Shown piece by piece: positions 34,902 to 53,786 of a stretch of 59,862 nt of DNA; position 1 is the first letter of the stretch; each line of letters starts with the position of its first letter. The translations under genes and the position numbers were made by a program. The stretch comes from a virus (taxonomy: Duplodnaviria > Caudoviricetes). The notes beneath the pieces are model-generated. The model saw only the letters and a program-made list of their open reading frames with translations, did not search any database and had not been told where the DNA came from. The stretch is from the IMG/VR virus record IMGVR_UViG_3300028862_000314, positions 1 through 59,862 of that record. One strand, written 5' to 3'.

Positions 34902-35195
34902 ATGGCAGCACCACTTGGACATAAGAAAGCAGGAGGCAGACAGAAAGGCACGACAAATAAGTCTATTAGTGATTTGCGCTCTATATTCAGCACTCTGCTT
35001 ATCAATAATGAGGGTAATATGCAGACATGGATAGACAAACTAGCTCAACGTAATCCAGGCAAGGCACTAGAGATTATAACAAAAATGGCTGATTATCTTA
35101 TTCCTAAACCAATTCAGGAAGGTGAGAAGTCACCGGAACTTGATTGGTATGCTGAACAAGCCCGGAAGATGATGGAAAAGAGTAAGACTGGCTAA
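34902..35195 (+). CDS. terS: putative terminase small subunit
   Basis: GHKKAGGRQKGTTNK and Y.IPK motifs typical of small terminases. Confidence 0.65.
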   Translation: MAAPLGHKKAGGRQKGTTNKSISDLRSIFSTLLINNEGNMQTWIDKLAQRNPGKALEIITKMADYLIPKPIQEGEKSPELDWYAEQARKMMEKSKTG

Positions 35196-35481
35196 GGATA
35201 TTCAAATTCCCTGTTATGTATTCTTCAATAGCTAAATACTGATTATAAAAGTCACTATCAATATTACAATCCCTAAATTTGTTCATCGAATGATATACTC
35301 TCTGTATGTCGCATCCTAATATTTCAACTACTTGGTGATCGCTTAACTTTGTGGTCCGCTTCAACGCTATTATAATAATCTGATGGCAGCGCATAACTCG
35401 CCTGGCGCGACTACTCCTGAACTCTTTTGGAGTAACAGAATAAGTTTTACATACGAGTTCTATTATTTGCGCAGGTGTCAT
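35104..35481 (-). CDS. DnaA C-terminal-like HTH protein
   Basis: IIELVCKTYSVT...S.R.R and LS...V..ILG.D...VYHS. Confidence 0.55.
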   Translation of the reverse strand: MTPAQIIELVCKTYSVTPKEFRSSRARRVMRCHQIIIIALKRTTKLSDHQVVEILGCDIQRVYHSMNKFRDCNIDSDFYNQYLAIEEYITGNLNILSQSYSFPSSSGLVQHTNQVPVTSHLPELV

Positions 35482-36149
35482 ATATGAATCTGATTAATCG
35501 GTGATTGAATCCTGCTAATTAGTTTATCAGAAATATGAGTGTAGATAAGAGTAGTCTTTACGTTATTATGACCGGCAAGCTTCTGGATCAGATTAATGTC
35601 AGTACCGGCCTCTACCATGTGAGTGAATGCACAATGTCTGATTAAGTGTGTGTAAACTCTTTTACTTATTCCGGCCTTTTCTGCCAGTTGTTTCATAACT
35701 TCATTCACCGATCTATCTGAATACTGAATACCAAACTGTCCATTAAGGACATATTCCTTTGAATGATATTCTTTGTAGTACTTTTCGAGCAGTGGAATAA
35801 TGACATCAGGAAGCATCACTTGACGGTCTTTATTTCCTTTGCCCGCAACAATGTTTATAATCATTCTGGACCTGTCAATATGGGACCATTTAAGATTGAT
35901 TAATTCACTTACTCTTAATCCTGTTGAATAGAGAAGTGTTAGTATTACTTTATGCTTCGTATTTTCGCATACACTGAACATTCTTTGAATTTCATCCTGG
36001 GATAAAACTATTGGCAGTTTATTATTTTTCTTAGCGTAAGGAATCCACTTGAATTTATCTTTTTGATTCAGGCATATATCATAGAATTTCTTAATTGCAC
36101 TGTGATAACATTTTTGAGTGTTGGCAGCAATACAATAGCTACCTGACAA
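35478..36149 (-). CDS. tyrosine recombinase (integron-integrase-like), apparently 5'-truncated at the first cassette junction
   Basis: KLP.VLS, GLRVSE, GKGNKDR, HLIRH, GH, TLIYTH give an intact R-K-H-R-H-Y set; only a TTG start, located inside cassette 1. Confidence 0.85.
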   Translation of the reverse strand: MSGSYCIAANTQKCYHSAIKKFYDICLNQKDKFKWIPYAKKNNKLPIVLSQDEIQRMFSVCENTKHKVILTLLYSTGLRVSELINLKWSHIDRSRMIINIVAGKGNKDRQVMLPDVIIPLLEKYYKEYHSKEYVLNGQFGIQYSDRSVNEVMKQLAEKAGISKRVYTHLIRHCAFTHMVEAGTDINLIQKLAGHNNVKTTLIYTHISDKLISRIQSPINQIHI

Positions 36150-36564
36150 TTTTGTTTATAAGTTGAATTGGGGTACAGTTAAATTTTTCAGAAAGATTAA
36201 AAATTGTCATTGCTTGGTTTCTTGTTGCTGTCAAATCTAACTTCCATCTTATTTCTGCAAATATTCCGTTTTTACGCATTCCGGATAAAGTAAATTTTGA
36301 TACGTCCATTTGTCCGGGTACGCATTCTCTACACCAAAAATCATCTTGTTCATCTTCGGGTAGTTGATTATAGTATTGTTCTACTTTGTCAAAATCTAAA
36401 ATAGCAACATAGTTATCATCATCATCGTTCTCGAACCCACTTTTAAAAGGTTTCGAGTGTTTGCATCCTGAAAAGGCTTGTATTACCTTTTCACCACAAA
36501 TGAAAAATGTACTGCTGCCAACAACAGGTATATTCAATTGCGGGGTTTGTGGTAATTCGTTCAT
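36139..36564 (-). CDS. cassette 1 hypothetical protein (start inside attC loop)
   Basis: N-terminal LNIPVVGSST is encoded by the attC arm. Confidence 0.7.
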   Translation of the reverse strand: MNELPQTPQLNIPVVGSSTFFICGEKVIQAFSGCKHSKPFKSGFENDDDDNYVAILDFDKVEQYYNQLPEDEQDDFWCRECVPGQMDVSKFTLSGMRKNGIFAEIRWKLDLTATRNQAMTIFNLSEKFNCTPIQLINKIVR

Positions 36565-36646
36565 TTATTATCGTATTTAAGTTATTACTGTTTGATAATT
36601 TTGCGCTTCGTAGTCCGCAACTGAAATATACCCGCGGACGTTAGCC
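36516..36646 (+). repeat. attC-like site 1
   Basis: TGCCAAC..GGTATATTCAATTGCGG / CCGCAACTGAAATATACC..CGTTAGCC. Confidence 0.8.
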
Positions 36647-36733
36647 AATAAGTTGCGCTGTAATCGTGTCTTAAAAATCTAATCCAATTCAAGACGGTTT
36701 CGCAGCAATTCAATGAGCATTAGCGCAACCTAT

Positions 36734-37230
36734 TGCTAACAGAGTATATAAAAAATTAAATGGTTTGAGCAATCTGTGCGGGTTCGGCTGTCAAATCTTC
36801 GCCAGTTAAAGCATACCACAAGTTTTGCAATTGGTGTACAAAGTTTATTTCAGCAATCCACACTTCTGATTCTCCAAAATAAACCTGTCCTTCAACAGTA
36901 ATTACCAATTCACCTTTGTTATAGTATCCAGGGTGTCCGATCTCAAATCCAAGTTTCATTAACCAATATTCTGATATTGTCTTACCTTCTAATTCAGAAA
37001 ATGAAATAAGGTCAGTTTTTAATTTATCCTCAAATAAATATTCAACTCTTGCGAAATCGTATTTAATTTCAACAACGGTCAACAATGCCGGCTTGCCTAC
37101 TATCGGGTCCCATTTATACGATAAATAATTCCCAATTTTTAATTCACTTTTTTTCATGTTTTTACAATATTTAGGTAGAGTTAGTATTTTAGGTAACCAT
37201 TTAACTTTTCATATACTCCATACGTTATAA
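36734..37230 (+). repeat. attC-like site 2 (gene in loop)
   Basis: CTAAC.GAGTATATAAAAAATTAAATGGTT / AACCATTTAACTTTTCATATACTC..CGTTATA. Confidence 0.8.
36756..37157 (-). CDS. cassette 2 phage protein (ELKIGN...VHQLQNL family)
   Basis: Paralog of 12908-13264. Confidence 0.7.
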   Translation of the reverse strand: MKKSELKIGNYLSYKWDPIVGKPALLTVVEIKYDFARVEYLFEDKLKTDLISFSELEGKTISEYWLMKLGFEIGHPGYYNKGELVITVEGQVYFGESEVWIAEINFVHQLQNLWYALTGEDLTAEPAQIAQTI

Positions 37231-37512
37231 GCCATTTTTGCCACCGCACCCATACTTCATGCTTTTCGGTAAGCAATCCATCATTTCTTTATCCAACCAC
37301 AGCACTTTATCACAATTCTTACATTTCCAACCATAAGCAGTCCATTTACTGATTTGTGTTTTACCACTTAATGAATGCTTGTGCTGTGATTCTATCTCGT
37401 CAATGTATGGGTTTTCCATATCAAATTCGTGTTTTACCCCAAATAAAAAACGGCTTATAACAACAAGTATAGGTAATTTGCCGTTCTTCAATTTAACTTT
37501 TTCTATATTCAT
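37225..37512 (-). CDS. cassette 3 small Zn-binding protein (start in attC loop, TAA stop in crossover core)
   Basis: CKNC motif; LPILVVISR is encoded by the attC arm. Confidence 0.65.
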   Translation of the reverse strand: MNIEKVKLKNGKLPILVVISRFLFGVKHEFDMENPYIDEIESQHKHSLSGKTQISKWTAYGWKCKNCDKVLWLDKEMMDCLPKSMKYGCGGKNGL

Positions 37513-37583
37513 AATATTTATCTTTTAATTTAAGTTTCTACTAATTTTGATGGGCAAACTACCCATACTTGCAGCCGTTAGCA
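37455..37583 (+). repeat. attC-like site 3
   Basis: ATAAC..AAGTATAGGTAATTTGCC / GGCAAACTACCCATACTT..CGTTAGC. Confidence 0.8.
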
Positions 37584-37613
37584 GCTATTAAAACAGTACG
37601 CTCGTTCCTCGCC

Positions 37614-38150
37614 TGCTAACATGGCATAAGAACAAGTGCTGGCGGTGCTTCGATTTAGCATTTCAACTAATTTTACCATAATTATTTTTTTGCCAACGCT
37701 AAAACTTCTTTATTGTATTTTTTCTGATAACCTTGAAATATATGTGGAAAATTTTTTCCAGTACATACCATATAAATTGCAGTCTGTGAAACATTATATC
37801 TTAAAGCAAGTTCCTTTTTGGATGTTCCATTTTTTAAAACTTCAATAATTATTCTTATTGCTTTAAAATCATTTAATTTTCTGTGTGGATTTCTGAATGA
37901 CCGAACATTCATTCCTTTTGGAGTTTTTGATTTGCATATTCTTTGTATGTGATTAAAATTAACTGGATATAATTCTGCAATTTCTTTTGAAGATTTATTT
38001 TCCACAAACCATAAATTTTGTATTTCCAGTTTTTGTTTTTCTGTAAGTTTTATATTACTCATATTTCCCCTCCTTAAAAAAATAATTATTACTGTAGTGT
38101 TTCAATCATACTGTACGTTTGCACCTGTTCCTATGCCGATACCGTTAGCA
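37614..38150 (+). repeat. attC-like site 4 (gene in loop)
   Basis: CTAAC..GGCATAAGAACAAGTGC / GCACCTGTTCCTATGCC..CGTTAGC. Confidence 0.8.
37682..38062 (-). CDS. cassette 4 tandem-HTH DNA-binding protein
   Basis: SSKEIAELYPV and SKKELALRYNVSQTAI motifs. Confidence 0.7.
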   Translation of the reverse strand: MSNIKLTEKQKLEIQNLWFVENKSSKEIAELYPVNFNHIQRICKSKTPKGMNVRSFRNPHRKLNDFKAIRIIIEVLKNGTSKKELALRYNVSQTAIYMVCTGKNFPHIFQGYQKKYNKEVLALAKK

Positions 38151-38234
38151 ACTATATGCGCATAACAGCAACTATAAAAACGATTCCAACACTTAACACT
38201 TTCGCAGCAAGTCCGGGCAGATAGCGCATACAGT

Positions 38235-39038
38235 TGCTAACACAGTATATAACAAACGCGAACGGCACAGCAACTATTAAAGGGTAATCGTTTATCATCA
38301 CAAATAATAACATGGTTGTACAAGTGGTTTTTACCATAATTCAGGCTGTAATTTATAATTTTGAAATCTTTTCTCTTGTGCGTCGTAATAATCTTTGTCA
38401 TTCTCAAATCCTACAAAATCAATGTTGCCAGTTCTGTATGCTGCAATTCTGTTTGATCCTGATCCTAAATGCGTATCAATTACTTTTCCGCCTTCAGGTA
38501 AATAGTTTCTGTAAATCCAACTGTAAAGCTGAACCGGCTTTTGTGTTGGATGTATTTTGTTTTTCTCGAGCAGTACGGAATATCTAAATATCTTATTTGA
38601 TCCATCAAATGAAGTCCAAGCGTAATCAAACATTCCAAAGCTAAGTTTTTCGGGTTGTCGCTTATCCCAGATAATACAATGTTTTGTTGCTGGAAGTGGA
38701 TAATAGTTGCCACCCCAAATAATCTGATTTTTGGAAATTCTGAAAAGTTCATCAAAGTATTCCATTGATATTGGCTTATTATCCCATTTCTTTGCGGTCA
38801 ACCCTTTGTCTGTTACTAATCGAGGGCTATTACCTATACCAATTCCAAATTCAGGATCAACCACAGCCAAATCAAAACAGTTGTCGGGATAGTTACGCAT
38901 GTTCACAAGGCAATCATCGAAAAAAACTATATTATTCATGTTGGTTCAATATTTAGGTAAAGTGAGCGTTATTATTTGTTTACTTTTCGTTTGCAATCAG
39001 GCAGTGGGTTGCGCTTGTCATATACTAATACGTTATGG
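38235..39038 (+). repeat. attC-like site 5 (gene in loop)
   Basis: CTAAC..AGTATATAACAAACGC / GCGCTTGTCATATACT..CGTTATG. Confidence 0.8.
38331..38939 (-). CDS. cassette 5 DNA amino-methyltransferase (N4/N6, beta class)
   Basis: DPEF motif IV variant, HPTQKP, IDTHLGSGS. Confidence 0.85.
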   Translation of the reverse strand: MNNIVFFDDCLVNMRNYPDNCFDLAVVDPEFGIGIGNSPRLVTDKGLTAKKWDNKPISMEYFDELFRISKNQIIWGGNYYPLPATKHCIIWDKRQPEKLSFGMFDYAWTSFDGSNKIFRYSVLLEKNKIHPTQKPVQLYSWIYRNYLPEGGKVIDTHLGSGSNRIAAYRTGNIDFVGFENDKDYYDAQEKRFQNYKLQPELW

Positions 39039-39087
39039 GCAACCGTAAGACCGCTCCGAAAGGCAGCCTTACGACGCCACAATTTCA

Positions 39088-39225
39088 CTACTTTAGTTTT
39101 GCAACCAATTCAAGTAGTTTTTCTACTACGGTCGTAACCGCTTCTTTTTTCTCTGCCCTCATTAATGGGTCAATGCTTGCCGATAAAGTGGCAATTGCGT
39201 TTAATAAATCCTGTTGATTTTCCAT
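39088..39225 (-). CDS. cassette 6 small helical protein
   Basis: MENQQDLL...; ORF can be extended to 39285. Confidence 0.5.
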   Translation of the reverse strand: MENQQDLLNAIATLSASIDPLMRAEKKEAVTTVVEKLLELVAKLK

Positions 39226-39281
39226 ATAAATTGTGGGTTTTACAATGCCCTCCCAAGGCGTATTATTTAAAAAACGGCAGC

Positions 39282-39377
39282 CCATAACACGTTGTATACG
39301 TCAGTTTTGCCGTGTAATTTCGTATAAATTGATAGCTGTGTGCAGGCAAAACCGCACGCATACAACCACCGTTAGCC
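39282..39377 (+). repeat. attC-like site 6
   Basis: CATAAC..GTTGTATACGTCAGTTTTGCC / GGCAAAACCGCACGCATACAAC..CGTTAGC. Confidence 0.8.
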
Positions 39378-39464
39378 AATAAGCTACGCATACAGCGTGT
39401 AATAAAACGTTAATCTTAATTTTCAATCTTCGCATCGGTTCAGAAAGTTTGGTGCGTAGCCTAT

Positions 39465-39891
39465 TGCTAACAGCGTATATAACAAAATAAATTATTTGGG
39501 CTGTACGTGTGGCTCGGTAGGCGCATTCATCGCTTCATAATCAATGTACACATCATACAGTTGTTCTGTTGTACGCCAAACATTTATGTCGTAAAAAGAC
39601 CAATAAGATTTAACCCAAACCTTTTGATTTGCATCTGTTGGATGTTGTCTGCATATCCAATTATACTTAGTAGTCCATTCAACAAAATCAATTGCCATTA
39701 TTTTTGAATAGTTAGACATGGCATCAAGTACTTCTGGAACATCAAATGTTATTTTAACACCTGGTCTCCTTCTTTCTCTTGCCTGTTTAAGTATTTCTAA
39801 TCTTGTTATGCTTTCCATAATTGTACAATATTTAGGTAAAGTGTGTAATTGAGGTAATAATTTCTCTTGTCATATACGCCATCCGTTAGTT
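39465..39891 (+). repeat. attC-like site 7 (gene in loop)
   Basis: CTAAC.GCGTATATAACAAAATAAATTATT / AATAATTTCTCTTGTCATATACGC..CGTTAGT. Confidence 0.8.
39492..39818 (-). CDS. cassette 7 hypothetical phage protein
   Basis: AIDFVEW...TTEQLY motif; same leader as the cassette 2 and 5 genes. Confidence 0.65.
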   Translation of the reverse strand: MESITRLEILKQARERRRPGVKITFDVPEVLDAMSNYSKIMAIDFVEWTTKYNWICRQHPTDANQKVWVKSYWSFYDINVWRTTEQLYDVYIDYEAMNAPTEPHVQPK

Positions 39892-40080
39892 GCAATTACA
39901 GAAAAACTCAACAACTGCTGAAATAATAACTACATATACAGAAACATACAATAAAGTATATAAGATATAAAGTGATTGGTCTCCGTTGTAGGTTTTATAA
40001 TGAAAATCAGCCGTTTTAATAGATAACCAAATTGTTAACCCGAAAGTCACAAAAAATCCTAATAATATTAAAGTATTCAT
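39886..40080 (-). CDS. cassette 8 two-TM membrane protein (TAA stop in crossover core)
   Basis: Two hydrophobic segments; ATG at 40080. Confidence 0.6.
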   Translation of the reverse strand: MNTLILLGFFVTFGLTIWLSIKTADFHYKTYNGDQSLYILYTLLYVSVYVVIISAVVEFFCNCN

Positions 40081-40098
40081 AATTAATTTAATAACTGC

Positions 40099-40227
40099 AA
40101 CTAACACTAAATATAAAATATACGGGTGTCAGTGCATATTTGAACGGTATTACCTTTAATTTGCTTTCGTGTATCGGGATAGGATACCGCTTTTAATCCC
40201 GTACATTTCATATTTTTAACGTTGGCA
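40099..40227 (+). repeat. attC-like site 8
   Basis: CTAAC..AAATATAAAATATACGGG / CCCGTACATTTCATATTT..CGTTGGC. Confidence 0.8.
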
Positions 40228-40233
40228 GCAATA

Positions 40234-41028
40234 CTACCAAAGTGCCAGTTTCAAGTTTCGTTTATAATTGAACCATCTTTTTTCTTCGTCCTGAAAATAT
40301 TCCGAATCAATTTCAGTGCCGACAAATTCGCATTCAAATTTATCTGCAGTAATTCGGCTACTTCCTGAGCCTAAATGTGTATCAATTACTTTCATTTTGT
40401 ATATGCCAAATTCTTTAAAAATAGCATCGTAGAGCATCACTGGCTTATGGCAAGGGTGTATTCTTTTTTCATTTAGTTTTTTGTTTCCTTGCTGTACCAT
40501 TGGTTCACTAAGGCTTTTCGCTTGCATCATTCCAGCCCATAAAAGCGGTATTTCAATTTCGTAATTAATAGAGCTGCAGTAAGCATATTCAAATTGGTTA
40601 AAACTTACACCTTCCGCAAATCCTTTATTCCATTTAATTCGTCCTTTGCCTAATCCTGTCCATTCGGTATAGTCAGCTCCGAAAATTATTTGGTTTTTGC
40701 TTATTCGTTTTAGTTCATCAAAATATGCTTGAGGTGGTGTGGCATTATCCCAATCCTTAAAAGTATGTTTATGTTTATTTCTGTTTGGGTTTATTCGAGT
40801 TCCATTTTTTTGTTTTACAGTCGTTTTGGTTTCTTTCAAATAAGCCATTTTAGCAACTCCAATCCCATAAGGTATGTCACAAACCGCCCAATCGAAATAT
40901 TTATTAGGAAACAAACCCATAACAGACGAATAATGAGCATTAAACACCGTACTGCTGCCAACAACAGGTATAGCAAATAAAGGCTGCTGTGGTTTGCGGT
41001 CGGTAGTGCTTTCTATATTATTCATCAT
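40234..41028 (-). CDS. cassette 9 DNA amino-methyltransferase (N4/N6, beta class; start inside attC loop)
   Basis: DIPY motif IV variant, HPCHKP, IDTHLGSGS; FAIPVVGSST from attC arm. Confidence 0.85.
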   Translation of the reverse strand: MMNNIESTTDRKPQQPLFAIPVVGSSTVFNAHYSSVMGLFPNKYFDWAVCDIPYGIGVAKMAYLKETKTTVKQKNGTRINPNRNKHKHTFKDWDNATPPQAYFDELKRISKNQIIFGADYTEWTGLGKGRIKWNKGFAEGVSFNQFEYAYCSSINYEIEIPLLWAGMMQAKSLSEPMVQQGNKKLNEKRIHPCHKPVMLYDAIFKEFGIYKMKVIDTHLGSGSSRITADKFECEFVGTEIDSEYFQDEEKRWFNYKRNLKLALW

Positions 41029-41085
41029 CGGTTGATAGTTTACTGGTTTCTAATCCTTTACTTGCCATACCTGCGACCGTTAAGT
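40956..41085 (+). repeat. attC-like site 9
   Basis: GCCAAC..CAGGTATAGCAAATAAAGG / CCTTTACTTGCCATACCTG..CGTTAAG. Confidence 0.8.
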
Positions 41086-41106
41086 GCAATACCTACGCAC
41101 GAAACA

Positions 41107-41592
41107 CTATTTAATTTTAATTCCTAATCCTATTCCACTATAAACAGCAAGCCCTATACCTCCTACAATCAACCCTCCGTCTATTGTAGCGTTAAATATT
41201 CCTACGCTAATCATAGTGTAACCTATTCCGGCCTCTGCCTGAAACTTCTTTGCTATATCCCAACTATCATCACTGCAGTGGTGTTCAAGTTTGGCCTGTC
41301 CTATTCCTGCATTGATCGTTACACGGTTAAATGATCGTGATGCACCTACAACAAATGATTGGTTTGTGTCGAAGCAATCCTCCGTATTTTTACCTTCCTG
41401 CCAGCTTACGGCAGCATAAGAGGCTATATATCCTCCCCATGTCGGAGAAGTATAAAATAACTTACCGCTTGCCTGCCCGTCTGAGTTATAGTGAATAGCT
41501 GCGCCTATCACTTGTGAGTTAGCCTTTATTGGGATCTGCGCCAATAAGAATATCATAATTGCAATAGCTGATAATTTTAATGCTGTTTTCAT
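41107..41592 (-). CDS. secreted, putative small outer-membrane beta-barrel protein
   Basis: Signal-peptide-like N-terminus; alternating Gly/aromatic strands; C-terminal GIGLGIKIK. Confidence 0.55.
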   Translation of the reverse strand: MKTALKLSAIAIMIFLLAQIPIKANSQVIGAAIHYNSDGQASGKLFYTSPTWGGYIASYAAVSWQEGKNTEDCFDTNQSFVVGASRSFNRVTINAGIGQAKLEHHCSDDSWDIAKKFQAEAGIGYTMISVGIFNATIDGGLIVGGIGLAVYSGIGLGIKIK

Positions 41593-41990
41593 AGCTTTGA
41601 GTATTTGATTATTACTTGAATAAGATTGAATCTGTCATGTTTATATGCTTTTTTGTAACTTGCCTGGGCAAAAAAATCTAACTGATCTACTCTTTCGTTT
41701 CCAATTTTTTTAACCAGATTCTTCCGATACTCTAACAGGTTCCCGTGTTTATGGTAGTTACATTGTAGGCACTGTCTATGTACATTGTCCTCGTTGAACT
41801 CCATTGAAGCATAATGTCCTGCCGAATAAAAGTGTCCGGCTTGTGGGTCATTACGTGTTCCGCAACTTATACAGCCCTGTTCTTCATCCCTTTTTCTTAT
41901 CCATGCCCTAAATAGTTTACCGGCCTTGGTTCGTAGTTGTGGAACTGAGTATTTTTTGTAATGCTGTATTTGAGTTGCTGTGAGTTCCAT
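41589..41990 (-). CDS. ninG: NinG/Rap-like recombination endonuclease
   Basis: IRKRD..CISCG..AGHF..FNEDNVH.QC..CN..KHGNLLEYR. Confidence 0.85.
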   Translation of the reverse strand: MELTATQIQHYKKYSVPQLRTKAGKLFRAWIRKRDEEQGCISCGTRNDPQAGHFYSAGHYASMEFNEDNVHRQCLQCNYHKHGNLLEYRKNLVKKIGNERVDQLDFFAQASYKKAYKHDRFNLIQVIIKYSKL

Positions 41991-42039
41991 TACAGTTGTA
42001 AGTGTTAAATATTAAATTCAAATTGCTTTTCTTTTGCTG

Positions 42040-52562: not shown

Positions 52563-53786
52563 TTAATTAGCCATCTTCACAACTTTCATTCCGCCTTTAG
52601 TTTCATACACATAGTCTAAAACAGCCCTTACGGCCCTGTCAACTTTAGTATAATCCACCTTAGTATATTTGTCAGTCATATCATAGTTATCCTTGTGTAC
52701 AAGTGCCAGGTCCACTTCATCAACAGGTATGTTACATTCGTTACGTGCAAAGGACCCGAAGGAGTGACGGGCATGATACGTTGTAATAGCGGGTATTTTT
52801 AACCGTTCACATATCAATTCAAGCCCTCTGTTAACACGTTTGTTAAACTGGCCCGTAGAAGTAAAAAGTTTATAGAAGTTAAATTGTCGTTTATCGTCAG
52901 CATATTTGGCAATAAGGCCGGTTATTTCCGGCTGCACCATCAGGCTTGTAAATGCTTTGTCGTTTCTCCGTTTAGTTTTCTGCCTGTTATACTCAATTCT
53001 TTTGTTCACGGAACGTGAACACGTGTACATATCTGCAGTATTCATTCCGGCCAGCGCAAAACTGATCTTAAAAACATCAAGGCCGAAAACTTCCCGGGGA
53101 TCTTCCGGGGTATCGTTCAATACTTTTCGTAGTGTTTCAACATCAAGTGAACGCTTGTCAGGAATATTGGCTTTTGGTTTAATGTAACCCTTCCGGTATG
53201 GGTTCCTTAAAAGTATATCTTCCCGTTCTGCTATTCCTGCCAGGGTACAAAGATAAGTTTGGTATAATCGTATAGTTGTTGATGATGTTACCTTCTTCAT
53301 CTTCCCTGGGATTGTGCGAAGGTTAATCTCAAAGTCATTTAGAAGCCTTACAGTAAACTTTGAGGCAGGAAGTATATCTGTTCCGATATATTCCTGCAAT
53401 CGGTCCAGTGCCGTGTAATATCCCTGTACGGTCTGTTTTGCCTTAGTATGTTTGAAGGAGTTAACCTTTGATCTGAAATAAGGGATAAGGTTAACGTCCT
53501 TGTCGGGTTCTGGATTGGATAAATAGTGAGCTAGATCCTGAACCGTCATAGTATCAATTAATGAACTTAATGATAATATTCTTTTTTCGTAATCTCTTAT
53601 CCGGTCCTTTATCTCATCCCTCAAAGTAATATCCAATAGTTCCCGTTTTACATTCAAGTCGGAAGATTCAACATAATAAGGTGTTTTCATATAGGCCGTT
53701 TTTGAATTGTGTATCATCCTGATGCGGACCTGATACTTATTATCAGAACGCTTGTGATCTGAAACCGATATTTTAAACGTTGGCAT
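52563..53786 (-). CDS. int: phage integrase (tyrosine recombinase with arm-binding and SAM-like domains)
   Basis: 407 aa; GMN..D, R.KT, YHARHSF, H...T..Y motifs; adjacent to attP-like site. Confidence 0.85.
   Translation of the reverse strand: MPTFKISVSDHKRSDNKYQVRIRMIHNSKTAYMKTPYYVESSDLNVKRELLDITLRDEIKDRIRDYEKRILSLSSLIDTMTVQDLAHYLSNPEPDKDVNLIPYFRSKVNSFKHTKAKQTVQGYYTALDRLQEYIGTDILPASKFTVRLLNDFEINLRTIPGKMKKVTSSTTIRLYQTYLCTLAGIAEREDILLRNPYRKGYIKPKANIPDKRSLDVETLRKVLNDTPEDPREVFGLDVFKISFALAGMNTADMYTCSRSVNKRIEYNRQKTKRRNDKAFTSLMVQPEITGLIAKYADDKRQFNFYKLFTSTGQFNKRVNRGLELICERLKIPAITTYHARHSFGSFARNECNIPVDEVDLALVHKDNYDMTDKYTKVDYTKVDRAVRAVLDYVYETKGGMKVVKMAN

What the first reader, a model, noticed from the sequence alone, without database searches (positions are those of the whole stretch)
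36641..39891. Whole genes nested inside the attC loop: inside-out cassettes
Seen: in cassettes 2, 4, 5 and 7 the GTT...AAC body is a gene-less 43-100 bp hairpin. The gene (36756-37157, 37682-38062, 38331-38939, 39492-39818) lies between the two arms of the att site, giving sites of about 430-800 bp. In cassettes 6 and 8 the gene is in the body, and in 1, 3 and 9 it straddles the arm. Every cassette has exactly one gene. Established: classical attC sites are under about 150 bp with non-coding loops. Inference: the excised ssDNA circle folds as a dumbbell and cargo can occupy either loop, an architecture standard attC searches would miss.
Basis: partly seen in the sequence, partly recalled or inferred. 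Interest (0 to 1): 0.9.

Follow-up and report, generated by a model that had tools for sequence, protein, structure and literature searches.

The report
Gene cassettes with split recombination sites
In this phage's integron-like row of swappable gene cassettes, four of the nine cassettes carry their gene between the two pairing arms of the recombination site instead of outside them, a layout not found in the literature searched that also recurs in related phages.

Summary
The window is a temperate phage record. It holds a nine-cassette, integron-like array (36120-41079) beside a Xer-type tyrosine recombinase gene that has lost about 58 codons.

Every cassette runs from one GTT to the next and has two arm pairs. 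The R pair is GTTA.../...TAAC. The L pair is variable.
- In five cassettes the gene lies between the R arms and the L arms close an 88-123 bp site, as in a classical integron.
- In four cassettes the R arms close a gene-less 44-101 bp hairpin, and 16-23-nt L arms flank a whole gene 419-796 bp apart. Of 20122 control pairs, 0 reach their scores.

The same layout recurs at 11 further sites in 10 related phage contigs and in the cultured Polaribacter phage Freya_10. Two backbone pairs (window/L049, L050/L055) are conserved exactly from GTT to GTT, with different cargo and different flanks.

An equal description is a normal-sized hairpin cut near its tip. Mobility through folded single strands is inferred, not shown.

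This is not a true integron, because the recombinase lacks the IntI-specific domain. The scan has noted the phage system, and similar tip-cut or gene-in-loop sites, on other DNA before.

The parts
35478..36149 (-). Xer/IntI-like tyrosine recombinase gene lacking about the first 58 codons. The break lies exactly at a GTT (the Asn codon of N-T-Q-K).
   Evidence: Pfam PF00589, 1.2e-39. NCBIfam XerA 178.7 bits and integron integrase 156.6 bits, both below their cut-offs, matching from profile position 59. Relatives have open reading frames of 275-329 aa over the gene (full-length L004 copy 275 aa), starting MNISEH....
36120..36639 (+). Cassette 1, classical layout. The R arms (36120-36134 and 36508-36522) enclose the 141-aa ORF, followed by a short 123-bp L site.
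   Evidence: Body stem score 14.5. Chain parse.
36640..36740 (+). Cassette 2: gene-less 101-bp hairpin closed by the R arms (GTTAGCC.../...GCTAAC, one bulged C).
   Evidence: Gapped stem score 16. Homologous to the bodies at 38144 and 39371, with compensatory stem changes.
36743..36765 (+). Cassette 2: L'' arm (23 nt). It overlaps the last codons and the stop of the gene.
   Evidence: The same arm occurs in L049.
36756..37157 (-). Cassette 2 cargo: 133-aa ORF lying between the L arms.
   Evidence: PHROG 10066, 2.8e-12.
37195..37217 (+). Cassette 2: L' arm (23 nt), followed by a 6-nt spacer and the GTT at 37224.
   Evidence: score 22.
37224..37576 (+). Cassette 3, classical layout: 238-bp body with ORF 37225-37512, then a 121-bp short site.
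   Evidence: Body 15.5 and inner 18.
37577..37620 (+). Cassette 4: 44-bp mini-hairpin body with an 8-bp R stem.
   Evidence: This is the weakest stem. Its loop shares ATTAAAAC with the 29-bp mini bodies of 7 other loci.
37623..38137 (+). Cassette 4: 17-nt L arms (37623-37639 and 38121-38137) flanking the 126-aa HTH gene at 37682-38062 (minus strand).
   Evidence: Score 16. Pfam PF04218, 1.5e-6.
38144..38241 (+). Cassette 5: gene-less 98-bp hairpin body with an 18-bp R stem.
   Evidence: Score 17.5. Folds locally in the array.
38244..39026 (+). Cassette 5: 16-nt L arms (38244-38259 and 39011-39026) flanking the 202-aa DNA methyltransferase gene at 38331-38939 (minus strand).
   Evidence: Score 15. 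PF01555 and PHROG 23224, 2e-31.
39032..39370 (+). Cassette 6, classical layout: 257-bp body with the 65-aa ORF, then an 88-bp short site.
   Evidence: The short site is 84% identical to one in L007, from AAC to GTT.
39371..39471 (+). Cassette 7: gene-less 101-bp hairpin body.
   Evidence: Gapped score 16. In the array it folds as a hairpin in tandem with the preceding short site, z = -3.84.
39474..39878 (+). Cassette 7: 23-nt L arms (39474-39496 and 39856-39878) flanking the 108-aa ORF at 39492-39818 (minus strand).
   Evidence: Score 19.5. The ORF has no family match.
39885..40220 (+). Cassette 8, classical layout: 221-bp body with the 73-aa ORF, then a 121-bp short site.
   Evidence: body 14 and inner 17.
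40221..41081 (+). Cassette 9, classical layout: methyltransferase gene in a 742-bp body, then a 122-bp short site ending at the last GTT (41079).
   Evidence: A metagenome contig diverges right after the GTT at 40221-40223.

Best explanation
The stretch belongs to a phage-borne, integron-like gene-cassette array.

**Platform.** In relatives, a roughly 275-aa Xer-type tyrosine recombinase gene sits about 50 nt from an insertion point (G|TT), and cassettes are added there. The window's copy of that gene is truncated, so this array is probably frozen.

**Cassette anatomy.** Each cassette is a GTT-to-GTT unit with two inverted-repeat pairs:
- R arms: GTTA... at the cassette start and ...TAAC further in.
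- L arms: variable sequence, placed just after the AAC and just before the next GTT.

On one strand these form one continuous imperfect duplex, R - asymmetric bulge (1-2 nt against 4-6 nt) - L, with the crossover next to the bulge. That duplex is the recombination site. It divides the cassette into two arcs.

**Two layouts.**
- In five cassettes the gene lies in the R-side arc (the classical layout).
- In four cassettes it lies in the L-side arc, and the R-side arc is only a 44-101-nt hairpin loop.

The 'inside-out' cassettes can therefore be described in either of two ways. One is a gene inside the loop of a giant site. The other is a normal-sized hairpin (L-R-loop-R-L) cut near its tip, so that integration splits the L arms to either side of the gene.

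**Shown:** the anatomy, its statistics, pairing kept despite sequence change, recurrence in other phages, and GTT-to-GTT unit boundaries.

**Inferred:** that the site acts as folded single-stranded DNA, and that inside-out units are excised and inserted by the recombinase.
For: **Arms.**
- The four long pairs score 15-22, against a control maximum of 14 in 20122 pairs.
- An anchored parse from 36120 recovers the chain to 41079. It gave 8 units, merging cassettes 4 and 5 because the 8-bp stem fell below its threshold.
- Short and long sites share the same junction consensus, TAAC-A and C-GTTA (63 short and 13 long sites).
- At 15 long sites (4 in the window, 11 in 10 other loci), arms of 17-26 nt stay complementary across 187-796 bp, with 3-7 pair types (non-standard A/C pairs included) at 13 of the first 14 stem positions and 2 at one. 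The mismatches are mostly A/C, which is G.T on the minus strand.

**Frame (which GTTs bound a unit).**
- In 19 of 20 relatives the first GTT lies 49-53 nt from the recombinase ATG.
- The window's truncation junction lies at a GTT.
- L049 matches the window only at 36638-36788 and 37165-37227. That runs exactly from GTT to GTT, with unrelated cargo and unrelated flanks.
- L050 and L055 share a 29-bp mini-hairpin backbone bounded by the two GTTs, with 641- and 886-bp interiors.

**Cultured phages.**
- Freya_10 equals Freya_9 plus a 307-bp GTT-to-GTT unit inserted at the site beside the integrase. The gene of that unit runs through the R''/L'' arm.
- Freya_10 also has a 61-bp hairpin body followed by 17-nt arms that flank 1109 bp with two annotated genes. 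Only 1 of 2603 control pairs reaches that score.

**Folds.**
- All 9 circularised cassettes contain both stems.
- The minus strand is more stable in 9 of 9, by 6.3-13.4 kcal/mol.
Against: - No excision or insertion of an inside-out unit from this window was seen. Laying contigs of 4 metagenome runs gave no joints.
- The recombinase here is truncated, and no attI-like left half remains.
- In relatives the inside-out class is a minority: 9 of 67 high-confidence units have interiors over 145 bp. In 4 of those 9 my ORF rule found no ORF of 30 aa or more inside, and in a fifth only a 31-aa one.
- At inside-out-to-classical junctions (37224 and 39885) no local hairpin exists. Recombination there would need a fold spanning 238-489 nt. 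For true integrons, loop length lowers recombination frequency when the site must extrude from duplex DNA (passage in PMC5027507).
- The extra unpaired bases sit on the arm opposite to the one that carries them in classical attC bottom strands.
- The recombinase lacks the IntI domain. By my recollection, that domain reads the extrahelical bases in the Vibrio IntI structure (for the gap).
- The Freya recombinase is only 30% identical to the window's.
Confidence: 0.6

Rival explanations
1. The long pairs are dead relics. They would be ordinary short sites whose loop was hit by an unrelated insertion of a gene, which left the site non-functional and the unit immobile.
For: - The recombinase gene is broken here.
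- No joints were seen in metagenome contigs.
- Inside-out units are a minority in relatives: 9 of 67.
Against: - Relics should lose pairing. Instead, 15 sites in 11 records (the window and ten other loci) keep 17-26-nt arms with many pair types.
- The same backbone carries different cargo in different records and ends exactly at the two GTTs.
- The R-side arcs are short, stable hairpins rather than decayed genes.
Confidence: 0.15
2. The arms act in RNA, not DNA. Long-range 5'-3' pairing of each gene's transcript and the downstream hairpins would serve processing, stability or termination.
For: - The mismatches are A/C on the plus strand, which gives G.U on the transcribed minus strand.
- The minus strand folds better in 9 of 9 cassettes.
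- The hairpin bodies lie just downstream of the genes.
Against: - The arms abut the AAC/GTT cores, where records differ by whole units.
- The arms have the same polarity and junction consensus as the short sites.
- The same strand bias is expected for a recombining bottom DNA strand.
- No Rfam family matches; the only hit was a chance one at E = 0.43.
Confidence: 0.1
3. Recombination is ordinary double-stranded Xer-type exchange between the junction half-sites (L'-spacer-GTT-R'). On this view the inverted copies inside each cassette have another role, and no folding occurs.
For: The enzyme is closest to XerA-type recombinases, which are known to act on duplex sites. This last point is established knowledge that I recall rather than tested.
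Against: - The spacers next to the nine GTTs all differ. Exchange across unlike central regions is disfavoured for tyrosine recombinases (established knowledge, recalled).
- This model does not explain why every cassette carries cassette-specific complements of both junction halves.
Confidence: 0.15

Closest known systems
Integrons: IntI, attI and attC-bounded cassettes (for example class 1 and the Vibrio chromosomal array)
   Same: - A recombinase gene lies next to an insertion point.
- The array consists of one-gene units.
- Sites are imperfect palindromes with AAC/GTT triplets, R and L boxes and an unpaired spacer.
- The crossover is at G|TT.
- The outer R-box halves are complementary across the cassette rather than across the site.
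   Different: - The recombinase lacks the IntI-specific domain.
- The genes point towards the recombinase gene.
- The R stems are 14-19 bp.
- The extra unpaired bases are on the other arm.
- In 4 of 9 cassettes the gene lies on the L side, giving 419-796-bp sites. The literature range is 57-141 bp for the site (PMC5027507 passage) and 20-100 nt for the loop (PMC4889954 passage).
Integron components and attC clusters reported in phage genomes (Qi et al. 2023, PMC9892861; abstract and section 3.4 read)
   Same: - Phage-borne cassette arrays, including some in a Polaribacter phage.
- Methyltransferase cassettes.
   Different: - Those were found with classical attC models and tested with IntI1.
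- No Xer-type recombinase platform is mentioned.
- No gene-in-site layout is mentioned in the parts I read.
- Their supplementary tables could not be opened.
Archaeal XerA and other Xer recombinases (PDB 5HXY and 4A8E are the best structural relatives)
   Same: Best sequence match of the recombinase.
   Different: Xer enzymes resolve chromosome dimers at a duplex dif site. Here the enzyme sits beside a cassette array of hairpin sites.
Synthetic attC sites embedded in arbitrary or coding sequence (Nivina et al. 2020, PMC7439510; search listing and start of abstract only)
   Same: Recognition by structure allows the arms to overlap coding sequence, as seen in the L'' arm of cassette 2 and in the Freya_10 unit.
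   Different: That system is engineered and uses IntI1. It keeps the classical box order and a short loop.

Membership tests
Integron (sensu stricto) | Integrase with the IntI-specific additional domain | tested here: not met
   - In the alignment of the full-length relative L004 to Vibrio IntI4 (2A3V), 25 query residues stand opposite 68 IntI residues.
- The TIGR02249 score is 156.6, below its cut-off of 265.
- That the domain is necessary is known to me only from the title of Messier and Roy 2001, seen in a reference list.
Integron (sensu stricto) | An attI insertion site beside the integrase gene | tested here: inconclusive
   - Relatives: the first GTT lies 49-53 nt from the ATG in 19 of 20.
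- Freya_9 and Freya_10 differ by one unit at that point.
- In the window itself the site and the 5' end of the gene are missing.
Integron (sensu stricto) | Cassettes bounded by structured sites with AAC/GTT triplets, R and L boxes and an unpaired spacer | tested here: met
Integron (sensu stricto) | attC of about 57-141 bp with a non-coding terminal loop | tested here: not met
   - 5 of 9 sites measure 88-123 bp.
- 4 of 9 measure 419-796 bp and contain a whole gene.
- The size range comes from a passage in PMC5027507.
Integron (sensu stricto) | Cassette genes point away from intI and are read from a platform promoter | tested here: not met
   All nine ORFs are on the recombinase strand. The same holds in relatives. 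Promoters were not mapped.
Integron (sensu stricto) | Recombination of one folded DNA strand | not testable with these tools
   Only predicted folds and a strand bias of the mismatches are available.
Xer/dif dimer-resolution system | Xer-type catalytic domain | tested here: met
   PF00589, 1.2e-39. XerA is the best NCBIfam and PDB match.
Xer/dif dimer-resolution system | A single duplex dif-like site and a role in dimer resolution | not tested
   No dif-like site was sought. The gene's fixed position beside arrays in all 19 relatives whose upstream DNA gave a chain, of 20 parsed, argues for a different role.

The most novel reading that the evidence does not exclude
The site of this phage system is a two-ended duplex with no fixed 'base' or 'tip'. 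A small Xer-type enzyme without the IntI domain recombines it as folded single-stranded DNA, and cargo can sit on either side of it or even run through it. The inside-out backbones would then act as portable split sites that also supply a leader and a stop codon to whatever gene lies between them. That would make them a natural, modular gene-capture vector, and current cassette finders cannot detect it.
Probability: 0.4. Interest if true: 0.85.

Novelty: new variant of a known kind. Interest (0 to 1): 0.7.

Why it matters
Three consequences follow if inside-out cassettes are mobile.
- The working definition of a cassette site (a short non-coding hairpin after the gene) is too narrow. Size-limited searches would then undercount cassettes.
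- It would show that what the enzyme needs is the R-bulge-L duplex alone, wherever the rest of the DNA is attached.
- It would give a concrete test bed, with cultured Polaribacter Freya phages as a tractable relative, for two questions. One is how long-range single-strand folding works in vivo. The other is how an enzyme without the IntI domain handles hairpin sites, which bears on how integron integrases arose from Xer-like ancestors.

The cargo seen here includes two DNA methyltransferases. That points to rapid swapping of anti-restriction functions in phages.

Tried and rejected
**Alternative frame.** I considered crossovers at the AAC sites, which would pair each body with the site on its other side. 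This would give cassettes with 0, 1 or 2 genes. I rejected it for three reasons:
- L049 and the L050/L055 pair conserve GTT-to-GTT units.
- Freya indels end at the equivalent points.
- The truncation junction lies at a GTT.

**Unanchored chain search.** A search for GTT/AAC chains across the whole window was too noisy. It gave 444 units, with chains of 4-7 also appearing on the reverse-complement strand and in reversed and shuffled controls. One search printed far too much. I replaced both with anchored parsing. The low-scoring tails of those chains (stems of 8-10, arcs over 1 kb) are probably false and were excluded from the counts.

**Searches that gave little.**
- Window cassette proteins against the first 24 loci: only methyltransferase and NinG matches, and no shared cassette.
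- Nucleotide search of cultured phages with 35000-42000: only methyltransferase fragments.
- Rfam: nothing.

**Metagenome contigs.** No joints were found. Contigs were short (mostly under 1 kb, depth 2-9). Run X4 lacked cover over 37510-38262 and 38765-39015. Neither lack of cover nor lack of joints is evidence of anything.
- Several contigs diverge at 39285 and at 40101/40102 (just before TAAC), and one at 40223 (just after GTT). These fit site-family homology and cassette turnover, but they do not decide the frame.

**Not in print, as far as searched.** Searches found no description of a Xer-type phage cassette platform or of genes between attC arms. These are word searches of open-access text only, and supplements were closed.

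**Not done.** I did not run IntegronFinder or HattCI, so the claim that standard searches would miss these sites is untested.


Full report
**Context**

The window is a whole IMG/VR virus record of 59862 bases, rated 69% complete. It looks like a temperate phage:
- portal protein and a 4100-aa protein with PHROG matches
- NinG and RecT homologues
- a second, 407-aa ORF at 52563-53786. I did not analyse it; an earlier first-reader note calls it the integrase beside an attP.

At 35478-36149 (minus strand) lies a tyrosine recombinase gene (PF00589, 1.2e-39). Its best NCBIfam matches are archaeal-type XerA (178.7 bits) and the integron-integrase subfamily (156.6 bits). Both are below their cut-offs, and both match only from profile position 59 onward.

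Twenty-three related viral contigs encode the same protein at 59-80% identity, with reading frames of 275-329 aa open over the gene (the full-length L004 copy is 275 aa). The window's copy begins inside the conserved N-T-Q-K motif. The Asn codon there, read on the plus strand, is a GTT that directly abuts a cassette end.

**The array**

On the plus strand, GTT..AAC 'bodies' and AAC..GTT 'inners' alternate from 36120 to 41079.
- The sequences after each GTT and before the next AAC are complementary. These are the R arms: 14-18 nt in seven units, 19 nt with a bulged C in two, and only 8 nt in the 44-bp body.
- The sequences just after each AAC and just before the next GTT are also complementary. 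These are the L arms, 11-23 nt. They are separated from the triplets by 1-2 nt on one side and 4-6 nt on the other.

Controls used AAC/GTT pairs outside the array. Of 20122 inner-type pairs, none reached 15 and the maximum was 14. Of 20619 body-type pairs, 0.005% reached 14.

**The finding itself**

In units 2, 4, 5 and 7 the body is a gene-less hairpin of 101, 44, 98 and 101 bp. The inner is 489, 529, 796 and 419 bp and holds one whole minus-strand gene. The L arms are 23, 17, 16 and 23 nt and score 22, 16, 15 and 19.5.

Three of the four genes have family support: PHROG 10066, an HTH protein and an N6/N4 DNA methyltransferase.

In the other five units the gene lies in the body and the inner is 88-123 bp, which is the classical integron layout. 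The one weak element is the 8-bp stem of the 44-bp body.

**Which GTTs bound a unit**

Every site reads AAC...GTT on both strands, so sequence symmetry cannot settle the frame. Four observations do.
1. In 19 of 20 relatives with upstream DNA, the best chain starts at a GTT 49-53 nt from the recombinase start codon. That GTT is preceded by a conserved ACATATA-like box.
2. The window's truncation junction joins the recombinase's internal GTT to the R arm of cassette 1. A recombinase-made deletion between a secondary site and a cassette start would produce exactly this. That step is inference.
3. Contig L049 matches the window only at 36638-36788 and 37165-37227. That is the hairpin body with the L'' arm, plus the leader with the L' arm. 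The match ends at the two GTTs. The cargo between differs (two small unrelated ORFs) and so do both flanks.
4. L050 and L055 share a second inside-out backbone: a 29-bp mini-hairpin body, 16-nt L arms and conserved end segments of about 95-137 nt. It is again bounded by the two GTTs, with interiors of 641 and 886 bp and different flanks.

A unit is thus a body plus the inner that follows it on the plus strand. Each of the nine window units then has exactly one gene.

**Cultured phages show the same unit moving**

The Polaribacter phages Freya_1 to Freya_10 carry a recombinase 30% identical to the window's. They differ in the DNA just upstream of that gene.
- Freya_10 equals Freya_9 plus 307 bp inserted beside the integrase. 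In the orientation used here, the insert runs from one GTT to the next.
- The insert has a 125-bp body and a 188-bp inner. Its annotated gene runs through the R''/L'' arm.
- Freya_5, Freya_6 and Freya_10 also diverge at the equivalent triplets.
- Freya_8, 9 and 10 carry a unit with a 61-bp hairpin body and 17-nt L arms. The arms flank 1109 bp holding two annotated genes. Only 1 of 2603 control pairs in that stretch scores as high.

No pair of isolates differs by that last unit alone.

**Recurrence and covariation**

Of 116 chained units in the loci parsed, 67 from 26 loci had both stems scoring at least 12.
- 58 of the 67 have inners of 59-138 bp (median 122), and 57 of those have an ORF in the body.
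- 9 of the 67 have inners over 145 bp, and 8 of those have bodies of 100-172 bp.

Short and long sites share the junction consensus TAAC-A / C-GTTA (63 and 13 sites).

I then pooled the 4 window sites with 11 from ten other loci. Two L027 sites were added by hand, because a 29-bp body cannot reach the score threshold. The arms are 17-26 nt, and 13 of the first 14 stem positions show 3-7 pair types (one shows 2), counting non-standard A/C pairs. Most non-Watson-Crick pairs are A/C on the plus strand, which is G.T on the minus strand.

The three 98-101-bp hairpin bodies of the window are paralogues with compensatory stem changes.

**Folds**

With DNA parameters, the minimum-energy structure of each of the 9 circularised cassettes contains both the R and the L stems. 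The minus strand is more stable in 9 of 9, by 6.3-13.4 kcal/mol. Whole-cassette base composition may contribute to that difference.

In the integrated array:
- A classical-to-inside-out junction folds as two tandem hairpins (z = -3.84).
- An inside-out-to-inside-out junction folds as one hairpin, extended by partial pairing of the non-cognate L arms (z = -3.0).
- At inside-out-to-classical junctions (37224 and 39885) no local hairpin is possible.

**Interpretation**

The common denominator is one duplex, R - bulge - L, with the crossover beside the bulge. It resembles a Xer-type core site with a mismatched centre, and DNA of any length can be attached at either end.
- Classical cassettes hang the gene on the R end.
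- Inside-out cassettes hang it on the L end.
- The Freya unit runs the gene through one arm.

An equal picture is a compact L-R-loop-R-L hairpin cut near its tip. The inside-out backbones also supply a shared leader upstream of the gene and, in cassette 2 and L049, the last codons and the stop.

Duplex Xer-type exchange is less likely because the spacers beside the nine GTTs all differ.

**Comparison with the known**

Integron parts in phages are published, including a Polaribacter phage and methyltransferase cassettes (PMC9892861; abstract and section 3.4 read).
- Classical attC sites are given as 57-141 bp (PMC5027507 passages).
- Their loops are given as 20-100 nt (PMC4889954 passages).
- Longer loops lower recombination when the site must extrude from duplex DNA (PMC5027507 passage).

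The recombinase here lacks the IntI-specific insertion, so this is integron-like and not an integron.

Five word searches found neither this platform nor genes between site arms. Supplements were closed.

Earlier notes of this scan describe the same phage platform on other DNA. They also describe a tip-cut site in an archaeon and small genes in site loops of a CPR bacterium. These are unpublished machine notes and I did not test them.

**Verdict**

It is not demonstrated as mechanism. I class it as a new variant of a known kind.

Noticed in passing
window 36120-36149, and loci L002-L024: The recombinase gene is cut at an internal GTT inside the conserved N-T-Q-K codons, where a cassette R arm is joined on. 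The missing N-terminal 58 codons were not found at the far end of the array (41079 onward).
   Followed up: partly
window 36756-36788, and L049 (reverse complement, about 2035-2070): Unrelated cargo ORFs in the window and in L049 end with the same backbone-encoded tail (..AEPA...TI, then stop). The site therefore supplies the last codons and the stop codon.
   Followed up: partly
L062 and L065-L068 (Polaribacter phages Freya_5, 6, 8, 9 and 10): Near-identical cultured isolates differ by whole units at the site beside the integrase. These include a 307-bp single-unit insertion and a 442-bp alternative unit in Freya_6. This is a tractable laboratory system for the platform.
   Followed up: partly
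window 40221-40223, 39285 and 40101-40102 (metagenome contigs): Peat-metagenome contigs match the window up to the GTT at 40221-40223, or only from the TAAC at 39285 or 40102, and then continue with other sequence. This suggests other cassettes attached to the same site families in the population.
   Followed up: no
loci L027, L045, L050, L055, L056, L060 and L061: A 29-bp mini-hairpin body (R arms around a 10-nt loop containing ATTAAAAC) recurs in seven viral contigs. The window's 44-bp body at 37577-37620 has the same loop motif.
   Followed up: partly
window 41079-41095, and the first cassettes of L003, L004, L005, L018 and L021: The sequence after the last GTT of the array (GTTAAGTGCAATACC) resembles the R arms of many first cassettes in relatives (GTTAg..gCAAT). 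It may be the displaced right half of the ancestral insertion site.
   Followed up: no
window 38331-38939 and 40234-41028: Two of the nine cassettes encode N6/N4 DNA methyltransferases, one in each layout. This fits with anti-restriction cargo.
   Followed up: no
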